From assembly GCA_964557295.1 (NCBI GenBank), contig CAZKZP010000004.1:68667-132666 (forward strand): a DNA stretch of 64,000 nucleotides, given 5' to 3'. Position 1 is the stretch's first letter; each line of letters starts with the position of its first letter. The DNA is from an uncultured Chromatiales bacterium. Lineage in GTDB: Bacteria > Pseudomonadota > Gammaproteobacteria > RBG-16-57-12. This document shows, piece by piece, positions 16,208-41,583 of the stretch. Below the pieces are notes generated by a model. It ran no database searches. It worked only from the letters and a program-made list of their open reading frames with translations, and was not told where the DNA came from. Position numbers and translations under genes: made by a program.

Positions 16208-16295
16208 TCCGATAACTTAATCAATCTCTAAACCATCCCGCACCCACGGAACAATGGCAGCGAATAAGCGCGATTGCTTCAGATCATGCCAGTAG

Positions 16296-17453
16296 TTATT
16301 GCGCTTTTGAATCCATGATCGCTCGATACATGGCGATAGTTCTCTGCGCCACTGACTCGGGATGATACTTGGCAGCCGCATCCTGCCGCCCATTTTCCGC
16401 GATCTTATTCCGCATGCCCGCATCGGTCAGCAGCTCGATCAATCTTTGCGCCAATCGGTCATGGTCGTCAGGGCCGACAAGAAAGCCTGTTCTCCCTTCC
16501 TCGATCATGTAGGGCATACCGCACACATTGGACGAAATGACCGGCACGCCAGCCGCCATGGCCTCTGCGATTGCCATCGGCGCATTCTCTTGATACGAGG
16601 GCAACACAAACACACTGGCTTCACTCAACTCCTTGCGCATCTGCTGTTGACTCAGCCTGCCCAGCAGGTGCACTCGGGTCTCAAGGCCATTCTGAACGAT
16701 GATATTTTTTATCTCACGATAATATTCAACCTCTCCGCCTGGCTCGCCTGCTATGTGCAGCTGCGCATCGACTCCAGCCGCAATCACTTTTATAAAAGCC
16801 TTGATTAGCCCAAGCGCATTTTTTCGTGGATTCAACCACCCGGCAAAGAACACTCTTCCCGCCTGCTCATTGCGCTCGATGGCGAAAAAGTCGCGCGAAA
16901 TTGCATTTTCTATTTCATAGACTTTTGCAGATGTCAGCGGCTCAATCTCTTTTCTTACGTAGGGATTAATGGATACGATGTGATGTTGTCGGGACAATCC
17001 AAATGACTCCGCCCGCCGCCATAACAACGAGCGTAGCCGCCAGAACGGCTTTCGCTCGGCGCCCAGATTGAGGCTGTCGAATCCGTGCACTGTGAATACC
17101 GACGGCACCCTTAGCTTATGCACGCCCAATCCATAGGTTTCCTGAAAATGCACAATATCGGGATTCAATGAGGACACATACTGCTTAAGCAGCCGCTCCC
17201 CTGGCCCGAAGAAAATGTCAAACATCATCGGCCAACGAGTTTTCGGTAATCTGTGGACAGTAATATTCTCGACTTTCTCTACTGAGATAGCATGACGACC
17301 CTTCTCAAAGGTCACCACATGCAACTCGTGTTCACCCGATGAAAGCAGCCCACGCAATAATCCAATGGTCGCGGTTTCGACACCACCACGTGGATTATCC
17401 ATGCTGGCAGGCATGCGGCTAAAAATCACTACTCTCATCGTTTTCCTTAGCAA
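16296..17453 (-). CDS. glycosyltransferase family 4
   Basis: 385 aa (an alternative start lies 5 codons in). It carries the GT4 signature ENAPMAIAEAMAAGVPVISSNVCG. Confidence 0.85.
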   Translation of the reverse strand: MLRKTMRVVIFSRMPASMDNPRGGVETATIGLLRGLLSSGEHELHVVTFEKGRHAISVEKVENITVHRLPKTRWPMMFDIFFGPGERLLKQYVSSLNPDIVHFQETYGLGVHKLRVPSVFTVHGFDSLNLGAERKPFWRLRSLLWRRAESFGLSRQHHIVSINPYVRKEIEPLTSAKVYEIENAISRDFFAIERNEQAGRVFFAGWLNPRKNALGLIKAFIKVIAAGVDAQLHIAGEPGGEVEYYREIKNIIVQNGLETRVHLLGRLSQQQMRKELSEASVFVLPSYQENAPMAIAEAMAAGVPVISSNVCGMPYMIEEGRTGFLVGPDDHDRLAQRLIELLTDAGMRNKIAENGRQDAAAKYHPESVAQRTIAMYRAIMDSKAQ

Positions 17454-17587
17454 AGTTCCTGTTCGGATTTCAGCGCCTCAGGGGGCTCTGTTGAACTTCT
17501 AGCGTCACTCCGGCGCATGTTGGGCTCTTGGGCGCCTGCGGTGGCAACCCCTGTTTTTCTCACGCCCCAAGAATTGGCCGGCTCACG

Positions 17588-19516
17588 CTACAGCCCACGC
17601 AAGTCGCTAAGCTGATAATTATTCCCGTCCATCACCCTGTCTTCGATATACATGCGGTACCAGACCTCGAGCGCGATGATACTCCAGAGCTGCAAAGAGT
17701 AATCTCGCGCGCCGCTCATGTGTTCCGCAATCAGTTTTTGCACAGCTCCGCCGTCGAGCAATCCCGTTCGATTCACTTGCTCCGGCGACAGGAAGGCGCT
17801 GATAAATTCTTTCAGCTCCCCCTTGAACCATTGGCCGATTGGAGAATCGAAACCGACTTTCTTCCGCTCGACAATCTGCTCTGGCAAGTACTTCTTGGCG
17901 ACTTCCTTCAAGATGTGTTTGGTTCGCGTGCCTTTGAGCCGGTATTGATTTGGCAGCTTGGCGGCATACTCGACCAGCTTGTAATCACACAGAGGTGAAC
18001 GCACCTCAAGGCTGTTGGCCATGCTCATGCGATCCATGTAGGTCAGCTGATATTCGGGGAGGTAGCCCTCCACCTCAAGTGATGTGGCCCGCTGGAAGAT
18101 AGTCATTTCTGATGATCCGCCCATCAAGTGATCTCGCAAAAAACTATCGCCGGCAGGATTGTCCGCCAAGCGCCGGCAGTTTTCAGAGATCAGTGCACTG
18201 CGTACATCCGGATTCAGCAAGCTCACCCAGGATAGATAAGCCTGGTCTGGCGGCAGATCCGCACCGGTCACAAATCGCTTGACCCGCTTGGCGAAACGGC
18301 TTCCGGTCGTGGACTCTGGCCATTTCATCGCGATGCGCTCGACGATCTGGGCTCGGACGAATTTCGGCAGGCGCTGATAGTATTCGAGATAACGCAAGCC
18401 TTGATGCTTGGGATAACCGTAAAACAGCTCATCGCCACCTGTGCCGCCGAGCGCGACCTTGAGCCGCTTGCGCACGAATTCGCACAACAGATACACCAAA
18501 ACTGATGTCGGCTCGCCGTGCGGTTCATCATAGTGCCAGATGATTCGCGGCAACAATTCCATGCTGGAGTGCGCTTCGAGAATCAACTCATGGTGCTGTG
18601 TGCCCAGGTGGTCGGCGACGCGTTGGGCATGACTCAGCTCATTGAATCCGGCGGCCTCACCACGATAGCCAACGGAAAATGTCTGCACTTGCGCTTCGTG
18701 CTTTTTCATCAGCGCGCAGATCAGTGAGGAATCGATACCGCCGCTGAGAAAGGCCCCCACCTCCACATCACTCTTGAGGCACAGCCGGATGGCTTCATCG
18801 AGCTCATGCTCCAGGCCGGCAAGCGCGTCACGATAGGAAATGTCGAGCGTTTTTGAAAAATCATTGTACCAATAGCGCTTCAGTGCACAACCGGTTTGTT
18901 CGCGCCAGATCAGCATCTCGCCGGGCTGCAGGCGTGATATTTCTTTATAGAATGTCTTGGGTCCCGCCACATATCCGGCAGCGAGAAAATCACAGACGGA
19001 TTGCGCCTCGACCGTACGGCTGGACAATGCCTGGAGAATGGTCTTCATTTCCGACCCGAAAAATACCCGGCCCTCTTGCTGAGCGTAATAAAGAGGCTTT
19101 TCACCGATGCGGTCACGCGCCAGGATCAGCTGGCGCTGTTTGGCATCCCAGAGCGCAATACCGAACATGCCGCGCAGATGATGCACGAAGTCCAGACCGT
19201 AATCCTCATACAGATGGACAATGGTTTCGGTATCGGAGTGCGTCTTCAAGGTGTGGCCACGCTGGATAAGCTGCGCCCTCAATTCCTCGAAGTTGTAAAT
19301 CTCGCCATTGAAGACCACCCAGACATCCTGGGTTTCATTCGTGATGGGCTGATTGCCGGATTTCAGATCGATGATGGCCAGCCGGCGCATCGCCAGCCCG
19401 ACGCCTGGTGCCGTGTAATAGCCGGCATCATCGGGCCCGCGATGCGTCATGCTGTTGCACATCGCGCGCAGCAGATTGCCGTCATCCAAGCCTACATATC
19501 CAGTGATGCCGCACAT
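17588..19516 (-). CDS. asnB: asparagine synthase (glutamine-hydrolysing) family amidotransferase, exosortase-locus type
   Basis: 642 aa. An N-terminal MCGITG class-II glutamine amidotransferase nucleophile is followed by the PP-loop SGGIDSS. It sits within the EPS operon. Confidence 0.9.
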   Translation of the reverse strand: MCGITGYVGLDDGNLLRAMCNSMTHRGPDDAGYYTAPGVGLAMRRLAIIDLKSGNQPITNETQDVWVVFNGEIYNFEELRAQLIQRGHTLKTHSDTETIVHLYEDYGLDFVHHLRGMFGIALWDAKQRQLILARDRIGEKPLYYAQQEGRVFFGSEMKTILQALSSRTVEAQSVCDFLAAGYVAGPKTFYKEISRLQPGEMLIWREQTGCALKRYWYNDFSKTLDISYRDALAGLEHELDEAIRLCLKSDVEVGAFLSGGIDSSLICALMKKHEAQVQTFSVGYRGEAAGFNELSHAQRVADHLGTQHHELILEAHSSMELLPRIIWHYDEPHGEPTSVLVYLLCEFVRKRLKVALGGTGGDELFYGYPKHQGLRYLEYYQRLPKFVRAQIVERIAMKWPESTTGSRFAKRVKRFVTGADLPPDQAYLSWVSLLNPDVRSALISENCRRLADNPAGDSFLRDHLMGGSSEMTIFQRATSLEVEGYLPEYQLTYMDRMSMANSLEVRSPLCDYKLVEYAAKLPNQYRLKGTRTKHILKEVAKKYLPEQIVERKKVGFDSPIGQWFKGELKEFISAFLSPEQVNRTGLLDGGAVQKLIAEHMSGARDYSLQLWSIIALEVWYRMYIEDRVMDGNNYQLSDLRGL

Positions 19517-19582
19517 TCTAGTCTTTCACTCCAAATCAGTTCATCAATATTCAACTGCCGCAAGAAACAGGGCCGCCGACAC

Positions 19583-20827
19583 TCACCCGAGCCGATATTG
19601 ACCAATCACCGCATTTAACTCATCATGCCAGCGGGCGGCAATCGCCTCGGTACTGCTATATCCGAGCGCATCGCGGCTCGCGGACAGTGAACAGGATTGC
19701 CAGTGGCTTTCGTCATTCAAGAGACATAGAATCTTGTCCCTGAATTGGCCGATTGCGTCACCGGGCAATATATATCCGTTGTGATCGTTCCGAATGATAT
19801 CACCCAGATCGCCCACCTCTGCGACGACCGGCACCGTCCCCATGGCCATCGCCTCCAACATGGCAATGGACATCCCCTCCCAGCGCGATGTCAGCACAAA
19901 GACCTTGGCGCGCGACACAAGCTCTGGCACATCGCTGCGTTGCCCCATGAACTGCAGGTGGTGGCTGATACCTAATGCCTGCGCCTGCGCCTTGAGGTCT
20001 CCTGCATCGGGGCCGTCACCTATCAGCACTGCCTTCAGGCCAGGCACCTCTTTGGCCACCTCGGCGACTACCCTGACGAATCGATCAGGGCGCTTGTATT
20101 CCGTCAGCCGACCGACGAACACCAGATCATCCGCGCGCTGACTGAGCGGCAATGGCGCAGCGGGCGCCTCGATACTGCCGGTGATGATGCACAGTCTGCG
20201 GCGGTAACCAAGCTGTCTGATGTAATCCGCGGCCTTGTTCCCGCGCACCACCACCAAGTCAAAGGCGCGCACGACTGCGAACGCAAAGCGCTCCACCAAA
20301 CGGCTTGGTCGGCCCAGCGCAACCAGTACTCGATTCTCTGCGTGCCATCCTCCCCCCTCAAGCTCCAGCGGGCCGGATGTCACTTGATAACAGGCAGGCC
20401 GTCGAAACAGCCGCGCCGCCACCAATGCAGAGACGGCTGCGGGAAAAATATGATATCCCATATAGAGATCCGGTCGATAACGCCAGCCGCAACGGACCGC
20501 CCAGATAAATTTGGCCAGAGCGCGACTGAACAATTTAGATAACAGTGGCGGCGGACACTCATAACGCAGTCTGTCGAGCATTTCCACCGGCTCGTCGCAG
20601 ACAAGGATCACCTCATTGACGCCGCTTTGCGTCAACGGACGAATGTGCGCATGAAACCAATTGGGATTGTGGAAGGTGCCGATCACCAGGATTCGCCCAG
20701 TACTTGTCAGGGGGTGTTTGCTTCGGCCGGCAAGCAGTTTCGCGACAGCCCAGCTCAACCCGTATATCGTTGACAAAATCACGGTTGCCGCCAATCGAAG
20801 CAGGCTGGATTTGATCTTGTTTTTCAT
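19583..20827 (-). CDS. glycosyltransferase family 4 with N-terminal membrane anchor
   Basis: 414 aa with an N-terminal hydrophobic segment and the GT4 signature EGMSIAMLEAMAMGTVPVVAEVG. Confidence 0.8.
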   Translation of the reverse strand: MKNKIKSSLLRLAATVILSTIYGLSWAVAKLLAGRSKHPLTSTGRILVIGTFHNPNWFHAHIRPLTQSGVNEVILVCDEPVEMLDRLRYECPPPLLSKLFSRALAKFIWAVRCGWRYRPDLYMGYHIFPAAVSALVAARLFRRPACYQVTSGPLELEGGGWHAENRVLVALGRPSRLVERFAFAVVRAFDLVVVRGNKAADYIRQLGYRRRLCIITGSIEAPAAPLPLSQRADDLVFVGRLTEYKRPDRFVRVVAEVAKEVPGLKAVLIGDGPDAGDLKAQAQALGISHHLQFMGQRSDVPELVSRAKVFVLTSRWEGMSIAMLEAMAMGTVPVVAEVGDLGDIIRNDHNGYILPGDAIGQFRDKILCLLNDESHWQSCSLSASRDALGYSSTEAIAARWHDELNAVIGQYRLG

Positions 20828-21062: not shown

Positions 21063-21174
21063 TCGCCGGGTTAATAATTTAATCATCGGCGCCAAAATAG
21101 GTCTGCTTTTATTCCTTCTCCCTGAGGGAGAATGAACGTCTTGAATATGCGACAGAGGTGTTACTAACTTGGCG

Positions 21175-21262
21175 GCTAAAGATACCTGCTGCTGTAGGAG
21201 CAAGCTTCAGCTTGCGATCAGCCACCGCTGCGATGATCGCCATCTAAAGATGGCTCCTACAT
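21175..21262. repeat. REP-like repeat family 2 copy B (ctgtaggagcaagcttcagcttgcgatc...gatcgccatctaaagatggctcctac)
   Basis: The motif gccatctaaagatggctcctac is shared with 46298-46340. Motifs are also shared with 540-625 and 46800-46895. Confidence 0.6.
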
Positions 21263-21297
21263 CAGATGTAATTGATCGCCGAGTTAATACTAACCAA

Positions 21298-22878
21298 TCA
21301 ATCATTCTCGGCAATTCCAAGGCCGAGCCGCTTCGCGAGCGATGTGTTGCGCAAATCATAACGCACTTGTGCGGGCACAAGATATCGCCAATACAAAACC
21401 GCCAATACAAAACCGCCAACCACGCATCCCAGCGCCAGCCCCGCGAGGAGATTGTCCGCGAACAGTACACGGCACCCGGCCAACACCATCAAGAATATCC
21501 CATTGAGCGCCAACGGCCGCAAGAATACCTGACGCACATATGTCCATAATGGAATATCGAGCTTGCGGCAAGCATAGACCGGCAGCAAAATCCCGTTGCT
21601 CAGCGTGAGCGGTATGGTGACCAATAACGCCGCGCTGATTAGGCTCCACCCCAATTGTTCAATCAGCAGCGCCGCGGAGGCAAAGGTCACTAGACTGAGC
21701 AGCAACGAGATCAGCGCGACTTTGCCGTGATGCCCCATCCCCATCAAGATTTTGTATACGGTGCCCTGTGAAACCGGTAAGAAATAGCCGATGGCCAATA
21801 TCGTCATCAGCAACCAGTCTGCATATTCCTGCCCCATCCATACATCGAGCACCACGTCGCCGAAACACACCAGCAGCAGAACAAATGGCAGCGTAAAGGC
21901 AACGCCGTATCGCGCGCTCTTGATCATGAACTCGCGCACTTCACCCGGCACACCGTTTTGATGCAATACGCCAGCGGTTGGTGTCAGAATCATCGAGAAC
22001 CTGCTGAGAAAACCCTCCATGTGGCGAACAAGGGCGATCGGCCGTGAAAACACCGCCAGCGCCGCCGGCCCGAGCTTGGCCACCAGCAATATATTGGTTG
22101 TTTGCACCAGCATCAGGGCGGGCAGTGAAAAAATCATGGCCTTGCCGCCAAATTGAAATGCCTCGACCCCATGCGAGCGACTGACATGCCGGTAGCTCAC
22201 CGTAAGCTCCGGGCATATCCTCCGGACGACAAAAACGCGCGCCACCTCGGTGATGATGGTCACTGACAAATACGCCACCCCTAAGCTGATCAACCCGCCG
22301 CCAAAGGTCAAGGCCGCTATCATGGCGATAACGGCCACAAACCGTCCCGCCGCATTCAGCCCACTATTCAAGTCCCAGCGATGACAGCCAGTGAGCACGC
22401 CGCGGGCCCAATTGAACGCCATTTCAGCCGCCAATGCGGCCCCCAACAGCGATACCACCCAGCCAGCAGTGTTTAACTGGTCTCCCAGCTGTTCTGAGAA
22501 AAACTTTGGGAGTGACCATACGACACCGGCGGTAGCCAGCAGCACAATGAGTGCGATGAAGATCTGTATGAAGACTGTCGAGGATACGATCTTGGACAGC
22601 TCTTCGATTTGGTTGGAAGCGCGATACACCGCCACATACCGGTTGATCGCCGTGCCGATACCCAGGTTGGACAGGCTGATATAGTTGATGAATGACCAGG
22701 AAAAATCCCAGATCCCCAGCGACACCTGTCCCACGTGCTCATCGATCATCCTTGGAATGATGAAGCCCGCGACAAAGAATACCAGGTAACTGCCCCAGCT
22801 CGTGATGACATTCCAGGCGAATCTATCGCGCCCGGTCATGTCCTCCGCTTGTGGCTGTGGCGTGCTTTTATCTGTCAT
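21298..22878 (-). CDS. polysaccharide biosynthesis protein / Wzx-type oligosaccharide flippase (MOP superfamily)
   Basis: 526 aa with about 12-14 TM segments, a hydrophilic N-terminal tail and the expected position in the EPS operon. The C-terminal few codons may run into REP copy B. Confidence 0.7.
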   Translation of the reverse strand: MTDKSTPQPQAEDMTGRDRFAWNVITSWGSYLVFFVAGFIIPRMIDEHVGQVSLGIWDFSWSFINYISLSNLGIGTAINRYVAVYRASNQIEELSKIVSSTVFIQIFIALIVLLATAGVVWSLPKFFSEQLGDQLNTAGWVVSLLGAALAAEMAFNWARGVLTGCHRWDLNSGLNAAGRFVAVIAMIAALTFGGGLISLGVAYLSVTIITEVARVFVVRRICPELTVSYRHVSRSHGVEAFQFGGKAMIFSLPALMLVQTTNILLVAKLGPAALAVFSRPIALVRHMEGFLSRFSMILTPTAGVLHQNGVPGEVREFMIKSARYGVAFTLPFVLLLVCFGDVVLDVWMGQEYADWLLMTILAIGYFLPVSQGTVYKILMGMGHHGKVALISLLLSLVTFASAALLIEQLGWSLISAALLVTIPLTLSNGILLPVYACRKLDIPLWTYVRQVFLRPLALNGIFLMVLAGCRVLFADNLLAGLALGCVVGGFVLAVLYWRYLVPAQVRYDLRNTSLAKRLGLGIAEND

Positions 22879-22905: not shown

Positions 22906-23868
22906 TCATACGTAACCGAAGTTGCGATTGGTTGCACCCGCCTTGGACTCGAACCGAGCAAGATCCGCCGAACTCAACTCCGACTTCCAGCGCTCATCCA
23001 ATCGGATCTGCTCGATTGCCTTTAAGCGCATGTTATTGCCGAGGATGTGATGCTCGACACGATTGAAGTCCGGCGCCGCCTCATTCGGCTCCAACCCGAT
23101 GAAACGATAGATCCGATCCAACACCTGAGCATGATCGCGGCAGAGATCCTCGTAGCGCACGACCAAGTGTTCCTGCGATGTCAGCATTTCGGACATAGAC
23201 TTCATCTCGCTAATCGTGTGCAGCCATTCCTTGAGCGCCCCGTTCATCGTGTGCTGCTCATGCCTCATGTAGGAGCAGGTCACCCCGCGACCGTCACGCA
23301 CCAGTGAAATCACGCGCACCTTTCGCCAGGGCGCCATCATTAAATGCTTGAGTCGCACCGGATCTTTCGATCCGTCCAGAAAGACCTGCCCACCCTTGAT
23401 TCGAGTGATAATCTCAATAAGTGTCAGGTTCTGCAGCAGTATCTGTGAGCGCTTGTCGCGGCAATGCCCGGACCGGCGAAACAAAAATTCACGCCCTGTC
23501 TCAAAACTTCGGCCACGCACCGCAGCATGCAGCAATCGATCGCAAAAATAGTCGTTGTCACGGAAATGCGTGCCGTAATGTTCCAGTGAAAACGGTAAGC
23601 CTTGCTTCGTCATCGCCTCGTCGACCTGCCGCCAGAATCCACAGGTTTTGATCGGGGCGCCGCAGGAGCACTGATAGCGTTCGATGTCCCCCATCGCGGT
23701 CGCCTTCAGTTCACCGATCGTGGATATTTCAGGGTGCGCCGCCATCATCATGGTCAAGAGCGTCGAACCGGAATAACTCGGTGACATGATATATACCAGA
23801 TCACCCAGCGGCCGTTCGTGCGCCACCGTATTAGTTTGCCCCATCCTAAAATCACCTAGCATTGTCAC
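22906..23868 (-). CDS. sulfotransferase family protein
   Basis: 320 aa with an N-terminal PAPS-binding-like P-loop (YIMSPSYSGSTLLTMMMAAHPE) and the fold typical of Stf0/Sulfotransfer_3-type carbohydrate sulfotransferases. Confidence 0.7.
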   Translation of the reverse strand: MTMLGDFRMGQTNTVAHERPLGDLVYIMSPSYSGSTLLTMMMAAHPEISTIGELKATAMGDIERYQCSCGAPIKTCGFWRQVDEAMTKQGLPFSLEHYGTHFRDNDYFCDRLLHAAVRGRSFETGREFLFRRSGHCRDKRSQILLQNLTLIEIITRIKGGQVFLDGSKDPVRLKHLMMAPWRKVRVISLVRDGRGVTCSYMRHEQHTMNGALKEWLHTISEMKSMSEMLTSQEHLVVRYEDLCRDHAQVLDRIYRFIGLEPNEAAPDFNRVEHHILGNNMRLKAIEQIRLDERWKSELSSADLARFESKAGATNRNFGYV

Positions 23869-23894: not shown

Positions 23895-24680
23895 TCAGGC
23901 CTTGGCCCGTCGATCAGCCAGCCGGCCCAGCCAGGCCTTGAATGTCATCCAAAAAAACAGAGTGTTCGTCACGAAATAACGCCGCCACAATCTGCGCGGC
24001 TCCTGCTTGACGCGATACAGCCACTCCAGGCCCAAGCGTTGCCATGCCGGTGGCGCGCGCATGACCTTACCGGCCATCACATCGAAGGAGCCGCCGACGC
24101 CATGACAGACCGGCACGCCCATGACCTGAGTCCAACGCGCGAGGAAATTCTCCTTCTTAGGCGAAGTCATCGCCACCAATAAGATATCTGCGCGCGAGGC
24201 CGCGATCTCAGCGGCAATCCGCGCCTCCTCATCCTTCGAAAAATATCCGTTGTGCCGCCCGGCCAGCACGACGCCGGGGTAATCCGCAGCTATGCGCTCA
24301 GCGACTTTCGCGGAAATCTCTTCAGTCGCACCCAGACAATACACACGGTACCCATGTTTTTGACCGCGCTCGAACATGCCGTACATCAAATCGATGCCGG
24401 CGATTCGCTCCGGCAAGGGCGCGCCCAAGATCCGACTTGCCCAGACGACGGCCTGGCCGTCAGCAAGAATGAGATCCGAACTCAGCACATCCTCACCGAG
24501 CGCGGGATCACGATGCATGTTGACGACCTTGGCGGCATTCACTACGCCGATCTGCAACTTTGAGCGCTGGTTGATCGCTGCATGCACGAGATCGAGCACC
24601 TGCGCCATGCTCATCGGATGGACGGGCACGCCCAAGATCTTAACCGGCGCCACACCATTAATCACATATGACTTTTCCAC
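23895..24680 (-). CDS. WecB/TagA/CpsF family glycosyltransferase (GT26)
   Basis: 261 aa. The N-terminal KILGVPVHPMSMAQVLDLV and a central NAAKVV...DGQAVVWASRILG match the WecG/TagA family. Confidence 0.85.
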   Translation of the reverse strand: MEKSYVINGVAPVKILGVPVHPMSMAQVLDLVHAAINQRSKLQIGVVNAAKVVNMHRDPALGEDVLSSDLILADGQAVVWASRILGAPLPERIAGIDLMYGMFERGQKHGYRVYCLGATEEISAKVAERIAADYPGVVLAGRHNGYFSKDEEARIAAEIAASRADILLVAMTSPKKENFLARWTQVMGVPVCHGVGGSFDVMAGKVMRAPPAWQRLGLEWLYRVKQEPRRLWRRYFVTNTLFFWMTFKAWLGRLADRRAKA

Positions 24681-24766: not shown

Positions 24767-25729
24767 CTACCCCGGGTTTCTCCGCCCCAGAGAATATTGA
24801 AAATCTAACAGCCCAGACAAAGATTTCCTCATCACATCGAAATTATGATGCACATGCACACGTCGGATTTCATAGCGATCCAAGCAACTCAAGAGATTGG
24901 TACCCCCGACCGAGGTGAACGCCAAATCAAAACCTGCGTCTTTGATGACCCTGCGGGTTCTGTCGTTGAAATCCCCTGGCAGCCCGTTCGGATAACAAAA
25001 GCTACTGATGCGGACTCCCAGAAATGCCTCCAACTCCTCCTTAGCACCCTGAATTTCTTCTACCAACTGCTCATCACGCAATAGGGAAACAATAGGATGA
25101 GAGCATGTATGACCCACGACCTCGAACAGTCCCGTTGCCAGCATCTCTTGCACGTCGAGCTTGCTGACGGCCCGGTATTGTTCGATCGGAATCTCCGGCA
25201 GCTCCAGAGCGAAATCATCAAACATGCGTTGGATGACCGCGTCTCGATCCGCAGGCAGTTTCGTTTTAAGGAAACCTTTGAATGCCTTTTCCGACGTCCT
25301 GACGCCGACGGTTAAACGGTGACCCTGCACATCATAGACCAAGCCAGGCGCTAATTGGCCTATGACCCAATGCAGCTTGTCAAACCAGAGCCATTGATTG
25401 CGGATAAAAAAGTCGGTAGGTATCGCCGATGCAATCGGCACATTGAGTGACTTGGCCACGGGAAAAATAGCCTCGCACAGATCGCGGTGACCATCATCCA
25501 CAACCACCATCGCCAACCGCTTGGAGCGTGATGATTCCAGCTGGCTTGGTAGAATGACATCGTAATGCGCGGCAAGATATTGCAGATACTCCCTGACATG
25601 AGCGCTCGTTATCAGCGAGCCCCCGTCGACACGATGCAATGTCATTACCGTCAACCGGCGTCTTCGATCCAATTTCATATAGCATTCCGACAACAAGGCC
25701 AGGACACCGCTCTTCAACCTTCCTACCAT
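24767..25729 (-). CDS. polysaccharide deacetylase (CE4/NodB-fold)
   Basis: 320 aa with NodB motifs VVVDDGHRD and VGHTCSHP. Confidence 0.75.
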   Translation of the reverse strand: MVGRLKSGVLALLSECYMKLDRRRRLTVMTLHRVDGGSLITSAHVREYLQYLAAHYDVILPSQLESSRSKRLAMVVVDDGHRDLCEAIFPVAKSLNVPIASAIPTDFFIRNQWLWFDKLHWVIGQLAPGLVYDVQGHRLTVGVRTSEKAFKGFLKTKLPADRDAVIQRMFDDFALELPEIPIEQYRAVSKLDVQEMLATGLFEVVGHTCSHPIVSLLRDEQLVEEIQGAKEELEAFLGVRISSFCYPNGLPGDFNDRTRRVIKDAGFDLAFTSVGGTNLLSCLDRYEIRRVHVHHNFDVMRKSLSGLLDFQYSLGRRNPG

Positions 25730-25784: not shown

Positions 25785-26939
25785 CTAAGCACAAAAATGT
25801 TCCTTGATCGACGCCACCACGCGCACGGCTGTCTTACCATCCCACAGATCGGGAACTTGATGCTTCATGGCCTTCGGGCCGAAGATGGCGTCGATGCGGG
25901 CCTTGATGTTGTCGAGGCTGCACAATTGATTGGTGCCTTGCGATACCGTGATCGGCCGTTCGGTGTTGGCGCGCATGGTGAAGCACGGCACGCCGAGATA
26001 TGTGGTTTCTTCTTGCACGCCGCCGGAATCGGTGAGGACAAAGCGGCAGTTGAACACCAGGTTCATGAAGCGCACGTAATTCACTGGTTCCAGCAAATGG
26101 ATGGCGCGATTTTCGCGCAGCGTGTCGTATAGGCCCAACTGTTCGAGATTCTTGCGCGTGCGGGGGTGCACTGGAAACACAATGGCCGTTTTGCGGGAGA
26201 GGTCGTGCAGCAGTGCGCACAGCGCGCGGAGATTGTCGAGATGGTCGACATTGCTGGGGCGATGCAGCGTGACAACGCCATAGCCGCCCTTGCTCAATCC
26301 CAACTCGGTGAAATAGGCCTCGGCCTCGATCTGTTTGCGCATCATCTCCAGCGAATCGATCATGATATTGCCGACGCGCACGATCTTGTCCTCCGCCACG
26401 CCTTCGCGCCGCAGGTTCTCGTCGGCGTCGGGCGACGGCGTCCACAGCAGATCCGCCAGGACATCCGTCGCCAGGCGGTTGACTTCCTCCGGCATGGTGC
26501 GATCGAAGGAGCGCAGTCCGGCCTCCAAATGCGCGATCACCGGCCTCTGCAAGGGCAGACGCGGACGGCCGGGTTCGGCCAACCGCTTGGCATCATAGAT
26601 CATCTTGGCCGCCGCCAGCGTGCAGGCGATGGTCGAGTTCACATCACCGACCACGACCACCATGTCGGGTTGTGATTCACGCAACACCTTTTCATACGCG
26701 ACCATCACCGCGGCGGTTTGTTCGGCGTGCGAGCCGCTGCCCACTCCGAGATGGATGTGCGGCTTGGGCAGACCCAAATCCTGAAAAAACGCATCCGACA
26801 TATTGGCGTCATAATGCTGGCCGGTGTGCACCAATTCCGTTTGCGCCCAAGGCGCTTCGATCAGCGCGTGATACAGGGGCGCGATCTTCATGAAATTCGG
26901 TCTTGCCGCTGCGATAAGATGGATTTTTGCCTTCACCAT
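25785..26939 (-). CDS. wecB: UDP-N-acetylglucosamine 2-epimerase (non-hydrolysing)
   Basis: 384 aa with the WecB/MnaA N-terminal KIHLIAAARPNFMKIAPLYHAL and conserved HTGQHYD. Confidence 0.9.
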   Translation of the reverse strand: MVKAKIHLIAAARPNFMKIAPLYHALIEAPWAQTELVHTGQHYDANMSDAFFQDLGLPKPHIHLGVGSGSHAEQTAAVMVAYEKVLRESQPDMVVVVGDVNSTIACTLAAAKMIYDAKRLAEPGRPRLPLQRPVIAHLEAGLRSFDRTMPEEVNRLATDVLADLLWTPSPDADENLRREGVAEDKIVRVGNIMIDSLEMMRKQIEAEAYFTELGLSKGGYGVVTLHRPSNVDHLDNLRALCALLHDLSRKTAIVFPVHPRTRKNLEQLGLYDTLRENRAIHLLEPVNYVRFMNLVFNCRFVLTDSGGVQEETTYLGVPCFTMRANTERPITVSQGTNQLCSLDNIKARIDAIFGPKAMKHQVPDLWDGKTAVRVVASIKEHFCA

Positions 26940-26995
26940 TCACCTCTTTGCAATTACATTCATCTCGTGAGAACAGCCGTCACGATACCCTGGGC

Positions 26996-27381: not shown

Positions 27382-28794
27382 TCACACGGCGCCCTCGCCT
27401 CTCAACACCACCGGCACGGTTTTGAACAGAATCTTCAGATCCAGCTTGAGCGACCAGTTTTCGATATACGCCAGATCCAGTTCCAGCCACTTTTCAAACG
27501 GCAGGCTGCTGCGGCCCGAGATCTGCCACAGGCAGGTCAACCCCGGCTTGACGCTGAACCGTTTGCGCTGGATGCCGCGATCGAACAAGTTGACGTCGCG
27601 TATCGACATTGGCCGCGGCCCTACCAGACTCATATGTCCCAACAGCACATTGAACAATTGCGGCAGCTCATCCAGGCTGGTCTTACGCAGAAACTTTCCT
27701 ATGCGCGTCACGCGGGGATCATTGGCGATCTTGAAGATGGGACCGGAGGCCTCGTTGAGATGCTCGATGTCCTTGAGCTTCTGCTCGCTGCCCTCGACCA
27801 TCGATCTGAATTTGTACATCGGGAATACCCGCTTGCGGTAGCCGACACGCTGCTGCACGAAAAACACCGGGCCGGGCGAATCCAGTTTGATGGCAAGGGC
27901 GATCACCGTCAGGATGGGCAACAGTATCGGCATCGCGGCGGCGGTCAGCACGATGTCGATCAGCCGCTTCAGGAACAGCTCGGCATCGTGCTGGGCCACC
28001 GGCTCGAAATTCAACAGCGGCACGCCGCCCAACACATCCAGCCGCATGCGCGCCACTTGAAAATCAAACAGATCCGCCATCAGCTTCAACATCACGCCTT
28101 CCTCGCTGCAAGCATCGACGATTTTTCCGACATCCTCGATCATTGAGCGTGGAACCGCGAGCACCACTTCATCCACCACATGCCATTTCAAGATATTGCT
28201 GATCTCATCCACTGTGCCGATCACCTTCGACCCGCAGAGCTCTGTACCGACCATGTCCGGGTCGATATCCAGATAGCCGACGACATCCACCCCCCAATTC
28301 GAGTTCTTCTTCAGCAGTTCCGTGACCCGGACGGCACGCTCCCCGGTGCCCACCACCAGGACCTTCAGGCGGTTCTCATCCTTGATCTTGAATCGCTTGA
28401 AATACCACCATGTCAGTATCGCGCGGTTCAGAATGAGAAACGCCACGCTCACGACCGTAAATGCCGTGATGACGATCCGGCTGATGCCCTGCTCACCCAG
28501 GAAAAACAGCATCATGATGAGCAAGGCCAGGGTCAAGATATAGCCTCGGGCGACAATCCATGCATAGTTCACCATGGAGATGCGCAACTGTCGGTAGGCC
28601 CCCCAATAACTGAAGCTCAATCCCAGCGACGGCAGAATGATTGGCAAGAGCGCCAGATGCAGGATGGTATCGACTTCCTTGCCGGGAACAAACATTGCGT
28701 GGGCGTGCACTGCCCAGATGTAGCAAAGCACGATGACAAGCCCATCGAGCACAAAAACCAATCGACTTAGATGTTTTGATTTATCGTCTATCAT
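27382..28794 (-). CDS. undecaprenyl-phosphate sugar-1-phosphate transferase (bacterial sugar transferase family, EpsB/WbaP-like initiating enzyme)
   Basis: 470 aa with N-terminal TM helices and a C-terminal catalytic domain (DSPGPVFFVQQRVG...FKFRSM...DELPQLFNVLLGHMSLVGPRP). Confidence 0.85.
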   Translation of the reverse strand: MIDDKSKHLSRLVFVLDGLVIVLCYIWAVHAHAMFVPGKEVDTILHLALLPIILPSLGLSFSYWGAYRQLRISMVNYAWIVARGYILTLALLIMMLFFLGEQGISRIVITAFTVVSVAFLILNRAILTWWYFKRFKIKDENRLKVLVVGTGERAVRVTELLKKNSNWGVDVVGYLDIDPDMVGTELCGSKVIGTVDEISNILKWHVVDEVVLAVPRSMIEDVGKIVDACSEEGVMLKLMADLFDFQVARMRLDVLGGVPLLNFEPVAQHDAELFLKRLIDIVLTAAAMPILLPILTVIALAIKLDSPGPVFFVQQRVGYRKRVFPMYKFRSMVEGSEQKLKDIEHLNEASGPIFKIANDPRVTRIGKFLRKTSLDELPQLFNVLLGHMSLVGPRPMSIRDVNLFDRGIQRKRFSVKPGLTCLWQISGRSSLPFEKWLELDLAYIENWSLKLDLKILFKTVPVVLRGEGAV

Positions 28795-28818: not shown

Positions 28819-30852
28819 TTACACCCTGATCATTGTTCTAAACTGAGCATCACCATTGAATTCGCCCTCTGCCACGAGCGTAGTGACGGGAATCTTCCGG
28901 TGATAGCCTCGGCTGAGCCAACCCGCCTTGGTGTGTGCATCCCCTTTGATCATCGATACCCGCACGGTCGGATCAAACGCCAAACTTACTCGTCCTTTCG
29001 GATATACGAGCTGACAGATATTGTTTTCTAAACTCGCGACCGTGCAGTGCTCCGACAAATGAAAGAACGCGCGCATGCGATGTTTGCCCGACGCCAGCAG
29101 CTCATCGGTCACCGCCACTTCGCGTCGCGTATGATCCAGACTGAGGGTGCGCCGGTGGATGACGGAGCCGTCGGCGGCCTGGTAGCCATCGTGTTCCCCT
29201 ATCACGCAGGTCGACGCTGCACTCGTCTCCCATAACAAACAGCGCGAACGCGCACGGCTGCCCCACAGGAACGGCCCGAGCATTCGGGACTGGTCCCTGC
29301 CGTCGATCTCGATCGTGTTGTGAGCGGCGGTGCTGCGGAAGTAGTTGCGCCATTCCGGGTAGGTGAAATAGTCATAGGTGCCCGGATCGACCAGGATATC
29401 GACGCCCGCCACCCGCAGCGTGAAACTCAACGCATCGGCGTGACCATGCGCGGCGATCGATCCATAACCGAGCTCGGCGCAGTCGAAAAACAAACTGATC
29501 GCCTCATCACCCGGCAGCCCACTTTGCAGCAGATAATAGCCGGACTCGGAAAAGGCGGTTGAACCCAATAGTTGCTGTGCCGAGTCCTTCGCCGCGGAGT
29601 GATACCAGGCAGGACCAGCCCCGCCCATGGTCCAATATGCCGTTTCGGCATATTCATCCGTAAGCGCGGCGAAATCCGCTCTCTTGAATAACACTGCAGC
29701 GACTGTCAGCAACCCGGTGACATCCTCTGGACGGTTGCCCAGATCGAGCACGTACCCGTCATCGCGATCACCAAACATCGGCAGCTCTTTGCCGCCTTCG
29801 GCAAGCCGCGCCACAAATTCGCACATTTTCTCGAGCCGCGCCCAATATTCTGGCGAATAATCATGACCGACCGCTCGGGCGCACAAGCCGGTGTACAAAT
29901 AAAACTGGATCACGAAGAATTGATAGCCGAGGGCGTGTTCGCGCGTGCAGCCGTCGGCGTAGGATTGCGCAAGAATCTCCCGCTCGAGGATCGCCTGGCT
30001 TTGCTGGCGCCACTGCGCTGAAAGCGCGAACTTGGAAAAGTAGCAGCTGGCGACCAACACGCCCGCCGCCTCGCCGATCAAATGGTTGTTGGATGATGAG
30101 CCTTGCGAATATTTCTTGGCCAGATCACGGCAGTGGAGATACACCGCGTGCAAAACTCGCCGCCGGAAATCGCCGGCAAACAACCCGGAATCCAGGATGA
30201 GGTCGATGGCCCATACCCAATTGATGAGCCGGACGCCCAGCTCCAGCGGACTGCGCCAGTTCATCCCCTTGCCATACGGATTGGCCTCCAGCCAAGAACC
30301 CAGCTGATCGATGACCCCCTGCGCATAGCGTTGATCGCGCGTCACATGATAGGCCCTGGCAAGCACCACTAAATGGTGGTGGCGATTCGGCTCCCAGACC
30401 AATTTACAATCACCGACGCGGTTGAAATCACGGTAATCGATCGCCTGAATGGGGAGGACCGGCGCTGTTATACCGCTGCTGTGATCCTTGTGCCAGTTGA
30501 TGGGATGGCCGAGGTCGACAGACTTTAAATCAAAATAACTGAGCTTGTGCGCCAGAATTTCCTCAGCGGCTTGCACCAGGGCCGCCTTCCAGCGCGGCTG
30601 ATATACCTGTTCGCGCGTGCCATCGCCGATCATATCGACCACTCTGAATCCCGGAGTGAAATCCCGTCCTTCATAGGGCTTGCAGACTTCATCGGCATCG
30701 GGAATCAAATTCATTTCCACACGGATGCGATCGATGACATCCTGAGCGAACGATCCCATCCGCCAAGCCACCTCGCCTGCGGACATGCTCTTCAATCGAT
30801 GTAAATACCAGGAAATGTTTTGCATATATCCTATCTTTCCTTTGTGTCCCAC
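28819..30852 (-). CDS. heparinase II/III-like family protein (polysaccharide lyase-like)
   Basis: 677 aa with an alpha/alpha-toroid-like N-terminal half and a Hepar_II_III-like C-terminal half. This is a common accessory gene of XrtA loci. Confidence 0.65.
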   Translation of the reverse strand: MGHKGKIGYMQNISWYLHRLKSMSAGEVAWRMGSFAQDVIDRIRVEMNLIPDADEVCKPYEGRDFTPGFRVVDMIGDGTREQVYQPRWKAALVQAAEEILAHKLSYFDLKSVDLGHPINWHKDHSSGITAPVLPIQAIDYRDFNRVGDCKLVWEPNRHHHLVVLARAYHVTRDQRYAQGVIDQLGSWLEANPYGKGMNWRSPLELGVRLINWVWAIDLILDSGLFAGDFRRRVLHAVYLHCRDLAKKYSQGSSSNNHLIGEAAGVLVASCYFSKFALSAQWRQQSQAILEREILAQSYADGCTREHALGYQFFVIQFYLYTGLCARAVGHDYSPEYWARLEKMCEFVARLAEGGKELPMFGDRDDGYVLDLGNRPEDVTGLLTVAAVLFKRADFAALTDEYAETAYWTMGGAGPAWYHSAAKDSAQQLLGSTAFSESGYYLLQSGLPGDEAISLFFDCAELGYGSIAAHGHADALSFTLRVAGVDILVDPGTYDYFTYPEWRNYFRSTAAHNTIEIDGRDQSRMLGPFLWGSRARSRCLLWETSAASTCVIGEHDGYQAADGSVIHRRTLSLDHTRREVAVTDELLASGKHRMRAFFHLSEHCTVASLENNICQLVYPKGRVSLAFDPTVRVSMIKGDAHTKAGWLSRGYHRKIPVTTLVAEGEFNGDAQFRTMIRV

Positions 30853-32320: not shown

Positions 32321-32322
32321 GA

Positions 32323-34628: not shown

Positions 34629-34686
34629 TTTTCAACCTGTTATTCTCTGCTCGGCGTCGCACACGAGTGGCATCATGCCGAGATTG

Positions 34687-38602: not shown

Positions 38603-38632
38603 TTATGGCTCATCCTCTTCAAAAACCGTTTA

Positions 38633-40180: not shown

Positions 40181-40201
40181 CGCAAACTCCGCTCGCCGAG
40201 G

Positions 40202-41545: not shown

Positions 41546-41583
41546 CCTGTTCCCCCGAATTCATAAGCGCGCATCCAAACTTC

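What the first reader, a model, noticed from the sequence alone, without database searches (positions are those of the whole stretch)
22906..23868. Sulfotransferase embedded in the EPS biosynthesis operon
A Stf0/Sulfotransfer_3-like enzyme sits between the GT26 WecG-like transferase and the Wzx flippase. This implies the repeat unit is sulfated on the cytoplasmic side before flipping. Sulfated bacterial EPS is uncommon and of biotechnological interest. No PAPS synthesis genes (cysDNC) are seen in the window.
Basis: partly seen in the sequence, partly recalled or inferred. Interest (0 to 1): 0.6.

Follow-up and report, generated by a model that had tools for sequence, protein, structure and literature searches.

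The report
Variant sulfotransferase in exosortase EPS operon
The flagged gene is a real sulfotransferase-fold enzyme sitting next to the flippase of an exopolysaccharide operon, so the sugar repeat unit is probably sulfated inside the cell; this kind of gene is already known, but it belongs to a large unstudied branch that lacks a normally essential catalytic residue.

Summary
ORF 22906-23868 (-) matches Pfam Sulfotransfer_3 (57.6 bits, cutoff 27). Its AF2 model (pLDDT 85.6) matches only PAPS-dependent sulfotransferases in the PDB. It lies 26 nt after a GT26 WecG gene and 27 nt before a 14-TM Wzx-type flippase, inside an XrtA/PEP-CTERM exosortase EPS locus. No PAPS-supply gene is in the window. 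The protein has no signal peptide or TM segment.

New findings:
- It is not Stf0-like. It belongs to an uncharacterised clade (1,197 50%-identity clusters at E<=1e-30), known only from MAGs and uncultured symbionts.
- The clade replaces the canonical 5'-PSB Lys/Arg with Tyr/Phe/His (243 of 252). It keeps the catalytic Glu, the TPST-K158-equivalent Lys and the 3'-phosphate Arg/Ser. It adds an invariant CxCG..C cluster.
- The ST-Wzx pair is a conserved cassette across phyla (Wzx immediately downstream in 27 of 59 loci).
- Three related loci carry PAPS synthase, APS kinase or CysQ nearby, which supports PAPS use.

Most likely it sulfates the Und-PP-linked repeat unit at the cytoplasmic face before flipping. 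Precedents include synechan, S. meliloti pSymB, and Vibrio and Cobetia CPS. Activity and EPS sulfate are untested.

The parts
22906..23868 (-). Sulfotransferase (Sulfotransfer_3 fold), 320 aa from GTG; the probable true start is the ATG at 23844 (312 aa). Soluble and cytoplasmic.
23758..23781 (-). 5'-PSB P-loop, residues 30-37 (PSYSGSTL). Tyr32 occupies the position of the canonical catalytic Arg/Lys.
   Evidence: Gap-free alignments to 4gox/4gbm/TPST and to the S. meliloti homologue. Clade-wide counts at this position: Y172, F45, H26, R5.
23704..23712 (-). E53-L-K55. Glu53 is the putative catalytic base, 21 residues after the P-loop position, the same spacing as TPST2 R78->E99 and CurM-ST.
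   Evidence: E in 253 of 258 members. The TPST2 and CurM residue numbering is from my own knowledge.
23632..23676 (-). Y65-x-C67-S-C69-G-x5-C76-x-F-W79: an invariant cysteine cluster of unknown role, possibly a metal site. It is shared with the S. meliloti pSymB relatives.
23353..23382 (-). FLDGSKDPVR. Lys168 aligns with the 'NKDP' Lys of TPST (K158 in TPST2), a transition-state-stabilising residue.
   Evidence: K in 262 of 265 members
23272..23298 (-). 3'-phosphate-binding motif R191-D-G-R194-x4-S199.
21298..22878 (-). Wzx-type MOP flippase, about 14 TM segments. It starts 27 nt after the ST stop codon and is the conserved partner of the ST clade.
23895..24680 (-). GT26 WecG/TagA/CpsF-family glycosyltransferase (ManNAc/ManNAcA-type transferase).
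   Evidence: A WecG homologue lies within 10 kb in 23 of 67 related loci.
24767..25729 (-). Polysaccharide deacetylase (CE4-like) with no signal peptide.
   Evidence: It is fused to Wzx in L033 and L037.
25785..26939 (-). WecB, non-hydrolysing UDP-GlcNAc 2-epimerase (makes UDP-ManNAc).
27382..28794 (-). Priming polyprenyl glycosylphosphotransferase (EPS_sugtrans, TIGR03025).
28819..30852 (-). Heparinase II/III-like (PL12-like) protein with no signal peptide.
15068..20827 (-). GT4 (19583-20827), XrtA-type AsnB-like amidotransferase (17588-19516), GT4 (16296-17453) and GT4 (15068-16207).
13460..14950 (+). Wzy_C-family polymerase / O-antigen ligase-like protein.
30944..35406 (-). Export and chain-length module: OMP beta-barrel (sub-threshold Pfam hit), ParA-like tyrosine-kinase ATPase, Wzz/GNVR co-polymerase, Poly_export/SLBB OPX.
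35825..43641 (-). PEP-CTERM system core: TPR protein (PrsT-like), exosortase EpsH/XrtA + DUF3485, sigma-54 response regulator (PrsR-like), GAF histidine kinase (PrsK-like).

Best explanation
The ORF encodes a soluble, cytoplasmic, PAPS-dependent carbohydrate sulfotransferase. It most likely transfers sulfate onto a sugar of the undecaprenyl-diphosphate-linked repeat unit that is built by the priming transferase, the WecB/WecG ManNAc branch and the GT4 enzymes. This would happen at the inner face of the membrane. The adjacent, co-inherited Wzx then flips the sulfated unit for Wzy polymerisation and export through the Wzz/OPX machinery of an XrtA/PEP-CTERM-type EPS locus. PAPS must come from genes elsewhere in the genome.

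Shown here: the fold, the family, most PAPS-site residues, the lack of export signals, the gene order and the conserved ST-Wzx cassette.

Inferred: catalytic competence despite the Tyr-for-Arg/Lys P-loop, the donor, the acceptor, and the timing relative to flipping.
For: - Family and fold: Pfam Sulfotransfer_3 and Sulfotransfer_1 score above their gathering thresholds. The AF2 model has pLDDT 85.6 and pTM 0.85. All 42 Foldseek PDB matches with E<1e-3 are PAPS-dependent sulfotransferases, led by OLS-ST 4gox (1.5e-8), CurM-ST 4gbm and TPST1/2. The family profile against PDB sequences gives 4gox 7e-11 and TPST1 1.7e-10.
- Active-site residues: the 3'-PB motif RDGRxxxxS, the 'SKDP' Lys168 (aligned to the TPST 'NKDP' Lys) and Glu53 at the canonical spacing are near-invariant in 265 members.
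- Location: no TM segment or signal peptide.
- Operon packing: 26 nt after wecG and 27 nt before wzx.
- Conserved context: a Wzx homologue lies within 10 kb in 48 of 67 loci and is the immediate downstream gene in 27 of 59. This holds across Gammaproteobacteria, Desulfobulbaceae, Planctomycetota, Verrucomicrobiota, Acidobacteriota and Bacteroidota. Endoriftia has a minimal PGT-WecG-ST module.
- Link to PAPS: L012 and L016 have ATP-sulfurylase/APS-kinase, a sulfate-symporter-like transporter and a CysQ-family phosphatase on the same strand within 7 kb of the ST orthologue. L004 has an APS kinase inside the EPS cluster.
- Precedents: a 26%-identical full-length relative lies in the S. meliloti pSymB cluster with nodP2Q2, a deacetylase and Wzx1 (PMC5498481). 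Sulfotransferases sit in the Wzx/Wzy synechan cluster (PMC8205485).
Against: - The clade lacks the 5'-PSB Lys/Arg that reviews treat as a defining catalytic residue (PMC11625862). Position 32 is Y, F or H in 243 of 252 members, and Phe cannot donate a charge or a hydrogen bond.
- No member of the clade has been assayed, and no NCBIfam model matches it.
- No PAPS genes are in the window, and the rest of the genome could not be reached.
- Only 3 of about 70 related loci have PAPS genes nearby.
- The acceptor sugar and the position sulfated are unknown. A nucleotide sugar or the nascent polymer could be the acceptor instead.
Confidence: 0.65

Rival explanations
1. The chemistry is N-sulfation rather than O-sulfation. 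The neighbouring cytoplasmic CE4-type deacetylase would remove the N-acetyl group from a GlcNAc or ManNAc residue of the lipid-linked unit, and the sulfotransferase would then sulfate the free amine. This is a split version of the eukaryotic NDST logic and would give a glycosaminoglycan-like polymer.
For: A deacetylase without a signal peptide lies two genes upstream. A deacetylase homologue lies within 10 kb in 19 of 67 loci. In two complete-chromosome MAGs (L033, L037) the deacetylase domain is fused to the C-terminus of the Wzx immediately downstream of the ST. The S. meliloti cluster also holds a GlcNAc deacetylase (PMC5498481). Pontiella exopolymers were reported as 75-80% N-sulfated (PMC7356697). 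A heparinase III-like protein is in the same operon.
Against: The deacetylase is absent from most related loci, and the homologues found are only 22-38% identical. The NDST sulfotransferase domain (1nst) is only a distant structural match (rank 32, E=5.6e-4). Nothing in the sequence distinguishes N- from O-sulfation. Deacetylation could instead serve amidation or acylation.
Confidence: 0.2
2. The protein has lost, or never had, classical PAPS-dependent catalysis because the P-loop cation is missing. It would be a non-catalytic scaffold or specificity factor for Wzx, or it would use another donor or reaction.
For: Position 32 is Tyr, Phe or His instead of Lys/Arg across the clade. The literature calls this residue catalytic (PMC11625862). 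Candidate compensation by K55 is incomplete: K55 occurs in 187 of 258 members, and it covaries with position 32 only weakly.
Against: Every other PAPS-site residue (G34, T36, E53, K168, R191, S199) is conserved at 96-100% across more than 250 divergent members, which is not expected for a decayed site. PAPS synthase and CysQ are co-located in three loci. The 3'-phosphate motif is retained, which argues for PAPS rather than APS.
Confidence: 0.1
3. Sulfation is 'activating', as in the CurM and OLS domains. Sulfate would be installed as a leaving group and then eliminated to create an unsaturated, anhydro or otherwise modified sugar, so the mature EPS would carry no sulfate.
For: The two closest solved structures by both sequence and fold are the CurM and OLS activating sulfotransferase domains.
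Against: Identity to them is only about 18%, and TPSTs match equally well. No thioesterase- or eliminase-like partner is conserved next to the gene. The conserved partner is a flippase.
Confidence: 0.04
4. It is a protein or peptide tyrosine sulfotransferase (TPST/RaxST-like) that modifies PEP-CTERM exosortase substrates.
For: TPST1/2 are among the best sequence and structure matches. The gene lies in an exosortase locus.
Against: Only 5 of 67 related loci have an exosortase homologue within 10 kb, whereas Wzx, Wzy and GT4 genes are the constant neighbours. No PEP-CTERM-tailed ORF is in the window. The gene sits between a glycosyltransferase and the flippase.
Confidence: 0.02

Closest known systems
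Synechan xss cluster sulfotransferases XssA/XssE (Synechocystis PCC 6803 pSYSM; PMC8205485)
   Same: Sulfotransferase genes are embedded in a Wzx/Wzy-dependent EPS cluster next to Wzy, GT4 and Wzx genes. Sulfated EPS was demonstrated chemically, and sulfation is proposed to occur on the cytoplasmic lipid-linked unit.
   Different: Similarity to XssE is only 23% identity over the C-terminal 145 aa, and there is no detectable relation to XssA. XssE has the canonical ERSGTT P-loop. The host is a cyanobacterium, the cluster is plasmid-borne, and no exosortase is involved.
S. meliloti pSymB Clr-regulated cluster sulfotransferases (SMb21237/21243/21249; PMC5498481)
   Same: The match is full length at 26% identity (5e-30). 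The CxCG..CxFW cluster, SKxPxR, LVRDGRGxxxS and H..GN..R motifs are shared. The cluster holds GT4 genes, an O-antigen-ligase-like gene, a deacetylase, Wzx1 and ExoP-like kinases.
   Different: The rhizobial protein keeps the canonical GRSGST Arg, and its cluster carries its own PAPS genes (nodP2Q2). The polysaccharide product is predicted but not characterised. I did not establish which SMb number corresponds to the matched gene.
TPST1/2 and the CurM/OLS sulfotransferase domains (PDB 3ap1, 5wrj, 4gbm, 4gox)
   Same: These are the best fold and sequence matches. They share the same strand-loop-helix P-loop, a Glu base 21 residues downstream, the 'xKDP' Lys and the 'RDGR...S' 3'-PB motif.
   Different: Their acceptors are protein tyrosine or a beta-hydroxyacyl-ACP, not glycans. 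They have Arg in the P-loop. TM-scores are only 0.47-0.58 with 13-18% identity. They lack the Cys cluster.
Sulfotransferases in marine CPS clusters (Vibrio sp. KMM 8419, PMC11641403; Cobetia marina KMM 1449, PMC11766843) and Pontiella PF13469 sulfotransferases (PMC7356697)
   Same: They are predicted polysaccharide sulfotransferases in surface-polysaccharide clusters of non-cyanobacterial bacteria that have chemically verified sulfated polymers.
   Different: The Vibrio CPS is ABC-transporter dependent, with cysNDC inside the cluster. I did not compare sequences with these proteins. None of them is linked to an exosortase locus.
NodH / Stf0 (glycolipid sulfotransferases)
   Same: Bacterial, cytoplasmic, PAPS-dependent carbohydrate sulfotransferases. 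According to the review PMC11625862, NodH is also a PF13469 member.
   Different: Stf0 is only a marginal structural match (rank 39) and its Pfam family is not hit. Both have Arg in the P-loop. Their acceptors are Nod factor and trehalose, not Und-PP-linked repeat units.

Membership tests
Pfam Sulfotransfer_3 (PF13469) | Profile score above the gathering threshold | tested here: met
   57.6 bits against a cutoff of 27, covering residues 26-260 and profile positions 3-213 of 216.
PAPS-dependent sulfotransferase superfamily | Alpha/beta fold with a central parallel sheet and a strand-loop-helix P-loop | tested here: met
   AF2 model: strand 21-28, loop, helix 33-44. All Foldseek hits with E<1e-3 are sulfotransferases.
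PAPS-dependent sulfotransferase superfamily | Catalytic Lys or Arg in the 5'-PSB loop (PKxGTT / PRSGST) | tested here: not met
   Tyr32 aligns without gaps to the Arg of 4gox, 4gbm, TPST and the S. meliloti homologue. Clade-wide counts are Y172, F45, H26, R5. The review PMC11625862 treats this residue as defining. The protein is therefore filed as a variant of the superfamily, not as a canonical member.
PAPS-dependent sulfotransferase superfamily | 3'-phosphate-binding motif (Arg ... Ser on the strand-turn-helix) | tested here: met
   R191-D-G-R194-x4-S199 aligns to TPST 'RDGRA..HS'. R191 is present in 260 of 264 members and S/T199 in 261 of 264.
PAPS-dependent sulfotransferase superfamily | Catalytic base (His or Glu) positioned next to the acceptor | tested here: inconclusive
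   Glu53 is conserved in 253 of 258 members, at the same 21-residue spacing as the TPST2 and CurM-ST Glu.
PAPS-dependent sulfotransferase superfamily | PAPS-dependent sulfuryl transfer activity | not testable with these tools
   The only support is by association: PAPS synthase, APS kinase or CysQ next to orthologues in L012, L016 and L004.
   No PF09037 hit at E<=0.01. Stf0 (1tex) ranks 39th, with E=8.7e-4 and TMq 0.33.
Wzx/Wzy-dependent EPS pathway (context of the ST) | Priming PGT, Wzx flippase, Wzy polymerase, PCP and OPX all present | tested here: met
   PGT (TIGR03025, 420 bits), Wzx, Wzy_C, Wzz/GNVR and Poly_export.
XrtA/PEP-CTERM exosortase EPS locus | Exosortase EpsH, a PrsK/PrsR-like two-component pair, a TPR protein and the XrtA-type AsnB amidotransferase | tested here: met
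   Exosortase_EpsH (186.7 bits) plus DUF3485, a sigma-54 response regulator, a GAF histidine kinase and a TPR protein. TIGR03108 scores 560.9 bits, which is below its cutoff of 816.9. No PEP-CTERM-tailed substrate is encoded in the window.

The most novel reading that the evidence does not exclude
This gene represents a large, unstudied, non-canonical sulfotransferase clade in which Tyr, Phe or His replaces the 'essential' PSB Lys/Arg, accompanied by a CxCG..C cluster. On this reading the clade is genetically joined to its own Wzx (and sometimes to a deacetylase). It would be a main route to sulfated, possibly N-sulfated glycosaminoglycan-like, exopolysaccharides in uncultured non-cyanobacterial bacteria: chemosynthetic symbionts, Woeseiaceae, Phycisphaerae from sediments and bioreactors, Verrucomicrobiota and Acidobacteriota. 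It would show that sulfuryl transfer does not need the P-loop cation, and it would give a marker gene for the unknown producers of sulfated EPS in sludge granules and marine sediments.
Probability: 0.3. Interest if true: 0.6.

Novelty: new variant of a known kind. Interest (0 to 1): 0.42.

Why it matters
Sulfated polysaccharides are valued as biomaterials and as heparin-like bioactive compounds, and microbial producers are being sought. The enzymes that sulfate bacterial EPS are almost entirely uncharacterised: only the synechan cluster has genetic support.

This gene marks a widespread clade (at least 1,197 50%-identity clusters) that travels with a dedicated Wzx flippase. That makes it a compact, transferable 'sulfation plus export' module for glyco-engineering. 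It could also serve as a marker for sulfated-EPS producers in sediments, symbioses and wastewater granules, where sulfated glycosaminoglycan-like polymers are detected but their producers are unknown (PMC7356697).

Mechanistically, an active enzyme without the PSB Lys/Arg would revise the current definition of the sulfotransferase active site (PMC11625862). No paper in the searched library links sulfotransferases with PEP-CTERM/exosortase EPS systems.

Tried and rejected
- Source contig: an exact-sequence look-up failed for P0001 and for the AsnB-like protein. The rest of the genome could therefore not be scanned for cysDNC, and the organism remains unidentified. The nearest genome is Pseudomonadota MAG326, at 74% identity for the ST and with a syntenic locus.
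- NCBIfam gave no model for the ST.
- The flippase alone gave only sub-threshold profile hits and meaningless PDB hits. This was resolved by scanning 16 homologues.
- Sigma-70 promoter and terminator scans and a sigma-54 -24/-12 pattern search gave counts at or below the shuffle expectation. The idea that wecB-pda-wecG-stf-wzx is a separate transcription unit, flanked by 442- and 470-bp gaps, therefore remains unsupported.
- Rfam found nothing in 14-44 kb.
- Compensation of the missing P-loop Arg by K55 was tested by covariation. The trend is weak (K55 with Y32 in about 84% of cases, against 1 of 5 with R32) and n is too small.
- The protein tyrosine sulfation rival was rejected on context: exosortase in 5 of 67 loci and no PEP-CTERM tails in the window.
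- The first cys-gene probes were E. coli sequences written from memory. The hits were verified by Pfam, and the search was repeated with those verified proteins.
Full report
**1. Observation**

The ORF at 22906..23868 (minus strand, 320 aa from a GTG) is real. The identical database protein P0001 is 312 aa, so the true start is probably the ATG at 23844.

It matches Pfam Sulfotransfer_3 (PF13469; E=2.9e-15, 57.6 bits against a gathering score of 27, covering almost the whole profile). It also matches Sulfotransfer_1 (37.9 bits against 22). No NCBIfam model matches it, and there is no hit to the Stf0 family.

The upstream gene (23895..24680) is a clear GT26 WecG/TagA/CpsF transferase (210 bits). 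The gap to the ST is 26 nt.

The downstream gene (21298..22878) starts 27 nt after the ST stop. It has about 14 hydrophobic segments. On its own it gives only sub-threshold MatE/WZX_like matches. However, 10 of 16 of its homologues match Polysacc_synt_3 (best 2e-14), 12 of 16 match MatE and 3 of 16 match Polysacc_synt. It is therefore a Wzx-type MOP flippase.

No PAPS-supply gene is in the window. This was checked in two ways:
- Pfam scans of all substantial ORFs found none.
- tblastn found nothing, either with E. coli CysC, CysD and CysQ probes or with Pfam-verified ATP-sulfurylase/APS-kinase, sulfate-transporter and CysQ proteins from a related locus.

**2. The locus**

All genes from about 43.6 kb down to 15 kb lie on the minus strand. 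Together they form an XrtA/PEP-CTERM exosortase-type EPS locus. In order:
- GAF histidine kinase and sigma-54 response regulator (PrsK/PrsR-like)
- exosortase EpsH + DUF3485
- a 925-aa TPR protein
- Poly_export OPX, Wzz/GNVR co-polymerase, ParA-like kinase ATPase and an OMP barrel
- heparinase II/III-like protein
- EPS priming glycosylphosphotransferase (TIGR03025, 420 bits)
- WecB
- a CE4-type deacetylase
- WecG
- the sulfotransferase
- Wzx
- GT4
- an AsnB-like amidotransferase (TIGR03108, 561 bits, below its cutoff)
- two more GT4 genes
- on the plus strand, a Wzy_C protein

The ST, deacetylase, WecG and heparinase-like proteins have no hydrophobic signal or TM segment.

**3. What the protein is**

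The AF2 model built on a 23-sequence alignment is confident (mean pLDDT 85.6, pTM 0.85). All 42 Foldseek PDB matches with E<1e-3 are PAPS-dependent sulfotransferases:

| Match | E-value |
|---|---|
| OLS-ST (4gox) | 1.5e-8 |
| CurM-ST (4gbm) | 6.7e-8 |
| TPST1/2 | 1e-6 to 1e-5 |
| Stf1, SULT2A1, HS 3-OST, NDST | weaker |
| Stf0 (rank 39) | 8.7e-4 |

The family profile also hits 4gox (7e-11) and TPST1 (1.7e-10) by sequence.

Residue mapping from these alignments:
- 'SKDP' Lys168 aligns with 'NKDP' of TPST (K158 in TPST2, from my own knowledge).
- 'RDGRGVTCS' aligns with 'RDGRAxxHS', the 3'-phosphate-binding motif.
- Glu53 lies 21 residues after the P-loop position, exactly as the catalytic Glu does in TPST2 and CurM-ST (residue numbering from my own knowledge).

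**4. The unexpected feature**

The 5'-PSB loop reads SPS-Y-SGST. Tyr32 aligns, without gaps, with the Arg of 4gox, 4gbm and TPST and with the Arg of a rhizobial homologue. This is not a private mutation. In an HMM alignment of 265 family members:

| Position | Count |
|---|---|
| 32 | Y 172, F 45, H 26, R 5 |
| G34, T36 | invariant |
| E53 | 253 of 258 |
| K168 | 262 of 265 |
| R191 | 260 of 264 |
| S/T199 | 261 of 264 |
| H274, N278, R281, W294 | near-invariant |

A cysteine set is also essentially invariant: C67, C69 and C76 in Y-x-C-S-C-G-x5-C-x-F-W, plus C243.

A recent review treats the PSB Lys/Arg as the catalytic, family-defining residue (PMC11625862). By that criterion this clade is a variant and not a canonical member.

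The strict conservation of every other PAPS-site residue argues against a decayed pseudo-enzyme. Phe at position 32 in 45 members argues that this position is simply not catalytic here. K55 could partly substitute, since it accompanies Y32 in about 84% of members against 1 of 5 with R32. It is not universal, and the sample is too small to decide.

**5. Size and spread of the family**

The exhaustive profile search finds 21,360 representative clusters at E<=1e-3, 8,003 at E<=1e-10 and 1,197 at E<=1e-30.

All 70 related loci in species-representative genomes come from MAGs or uncultured symbionts:
- Gammaproteobacteria: Woeseiaceae, Chromatiales, Pseudomonadales, Ca. Endoriftia and Thiodiazotropha
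- Desulfobulbaceae
- Phycisphaerae and other Planctomycetota
- Verrucomicrobiota
- Acidobacteriota
- a Polaribacter

The closest locus (L001, Pseudomonadota MAG326, 74% identity) is fully syntenic. NCBI already labels several members 'sulfotransferase'. No member appears to be characterised.

**6. Conserved context**

I probed the loci with the window's EPS proteins.

| Homologue | Loci with it within 10 kb (of 67) |
|---|---|
| Wzx | 48 |
| a GT4 | 46 |
| Wzy | 39 |
| WecG | 23 |
| deacetylase | 19 |
| AsnB-like | 19 |
| heparinase-like | 9 |
| exosortase | 5 |

The Wzx homologue is the immediate downstream gene in 27 of 59 loci, often overlapping the ST stop. Wzy is the immediate upstream gene in 15 of 62, and WecG in 6 of 62.

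Independent Pfam-annotated contigs show two arrangements: Wzy-ST-Wzx(PF13440)-GT4 in Phycisphaerae, and a minimal PGT-WecG-ST module in the Riftia and Ridgeia symbionts.

In two complete-chromosome MAGs, the gene after the ST is a Wzx-Polysacc_deac_1 fusion. In a third it is a Wzx-GT4 fusion.

The cassette is therefore a general Wzx/Wzy-pathway module. It is not specific to exosortase systems.

**7. Link to PAPS**

In L012 and L016 (Pirellulales MAGs), the ST orthologue is followed on the same strand, within 7 kb, by three genes:
- a bifunctional ATP-sulfurylase/APS-kinase (PF01747 294 bits, PF01583 184 bits)
- a CitMHS/Na_sulph_symp transporter
- a CysQ-family Inositol_P phosphatase

In L004 an APS kinase (230 bits) lies inside the EPS cluster.

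This is association-based support for PAPS as the donor, despite the P-loop variant. It applies to only 3 of about 70 loci.

**8. Mechanism**

The most likely mechanism (confidence about 0.65) has four steps:
1. The priming transferase starts the unit on undecaprenyl phosphate.
2. WecB supplies UDP-ManNAc. WecG and the GT4 enzymes extend the unit, and the deacetylase and amidotransferase may modify it.
3. The cytoplasmic ST transfers sulfate from PAPS onto the lipid-linked unit.
4. The co-inherited Wzx flips it, Wzy polymerises it, and the PCP/OPX machinery exports it.

Fold, motifs, location and gene order are shown here. Donor, acceptor, regiochemistry and timing are inferred. The idea that the Wzx is tuned to the sulfated unit is also an inference. 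It rests on the tight ST-Wzx linkage and on the known substrate preference of Wzx proteins (my own knowledge).

Rival explanations:

| Rival | Confidence | Main points |
|---|---|---|
| N-sulfation after de-N-acetylation | 0.2 | Supported by the Wzx-deacetylase fusions, the S. meliloti and Pontiella precedents and the heparinase-like gene; the deacetylase is missing from most loci |
| Non-canonical or inactive enzyme | 0.1 | Rests on the missing P-loop cation |
| CurM-like activating sulfation | 0.04 | Closest solved structures, but no eliminase-like partner |
| Tyrosine sulfation of PEP-CTERM proteins | 0.02 | Contradicted by the conserved glycan-assembly context |

**9. Comparison with known systems**

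- The closest functionally studied analogue is the synechan xss cluster (PMC8205485). The query is only 23% identical to XssE over 145 aa and is unrelated to XssA.
- A closer relative (26% identity, full length, sharing the Cys cluster but with the canonical Arg) lies in the S. meliloti pSymB Clr-regulated cluster. That cluster also has nodP2Q2, three sulfotransferases, a deacetylase and Wzx1, and it is predicted to make a sulfated polysaccharide (PMC5498481).
- Sulfated CPS clusters with sulfotransferases are also described for Vibrio KMM 8419 (cysNDC in the cluster; PMC11641403), Cobetia marina (PMC11766843) and Pontiella (PMC7356697).
- No paper in the searched library connects sulfotransferases with PEP-CTERM/exosortase loci.

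**10. Verdict**

The kind of thing is already known: a polysaccharide-cluster sulfotransferase.

Three points are new:
- The gene belongs to a large, uncharacterised, environmentally widespread clade with a non-canonical P-loop and a conserved Cys cluster.
- That clade forms a conserved ST-Wzx cassette.
- Here the cassette sits in an exosortase-type EPS locus.

I rate it a new variant of a known kind, with interest 0.42.

Noticed in passing
window 23632-23676 (residues 65-79), plus C243 at about 23140-23142: Four near-invariant cysteines in the sulfotransferase clade: C67, C69 and C76 in a Y-x-C-S-C-G-x5-C-x-F-W motif, plus C243. The CxCG..CxFW part is shared with the S. meliloti pSymB relative, but C243 is not. 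This may be a metal site in a cytoplasmic enzyme. TPST, CurM and OLS have no counterpart.
   Followed up: partly
L033:10845-13406, L037:10884-13403, L052:10830-13727: Immediately downstream of the ST orthologue, the Wzx is fused to a polysaccharide deacetylase domain in two complete-chromosome MAGs, and to a GT4 glycosyltransferase in one MAG. These fusions tie those enzymes to the flippase.
   Followed up: yes
L012:6220-10616 (also L016:8310-12689 and L004:16931-17560): A PAPS supply cassette lies next to ST orthologues in Pirellulales MAGs: an ATP-sulfurylase/APS-kinase fusion, a CitMHS/Na-sulfate-symporter-like transporter and a CysQ-family phosphatase. A Gammaproteobacteria MAG has a stand-alone APS kinase inside its EPS cluster.
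   Followed up: yes
window 28819-30852 (-): A heparinase II/III-like (PL12-like; best PDB match heparinase III, 1e-18) protein without a signal peptide is encoded inside the biosynthetic operon. Homologues occur in 9 of 67 related loci. A cytoplasmic 'lyase' in a biosynthesis cluster is unexplained; it might be an epimerase or a processing enzyme.
   Followed up: partly
window 12000-16000: G+C drops to 44-48% here, against 55-63% elsewhere. The region covers an unannotated 560-aa membrane protein (11781-13463), the Wzy_C gene and one GT4, which suggests a horizontally exchanged, serotype-like variable part of the locus.
   Followed up: no
window 3131-11427 (+): A run of large plus-strand ORFs lies beside the EPS locus: a He_PIG/fn3 protein (4365-6665), an fn3 protein (7373-7840) and two paralogous beta-helix proteins (7925-9622, 9742-11427). 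None has a PEP-CTERM tail, and no PEP-CTERM-tailed ORF exists anywhere in the window despite the exosortase.
   Followed up: partly
window 20828-21297 and 26940-27381: Two unusually long intergenic gaps (470 and 442 bp) bracket the block wecB-deacetylase-wecG-ST-wzx, while the gaps inside the block are 26-86 nt. This suggests a separate transcription unit. No promoter, terminator, sigma-54 or Rfam signal above chance was found.
   Followed up: partly
window 46905-59779: A glycogen and central-carbon cluster lies to the right of the EPS locus: malQ (GH77), GH57, glgC, glgB, glgA, a 6PGD-like gene, zwf, glk and pgl. A LonC-like protease is at 43850-46270 and a DUF6763 protein at 46360-47073.
   Followed up: no
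L071:7639-10939 (endosymbiont of Ridgeia piscesae) and L072: In the tubeworm symbionts the ST orthologue sits in a minimal three-gene module, PGT-WecG-ST. It has no adjacent flippase, polymerase or further glycosyltransferases and lies next to a type II secretion cluster. This hints at a short sulfated lipid-linked glycan rather than a polymer in that lineage.
   Followed up: no
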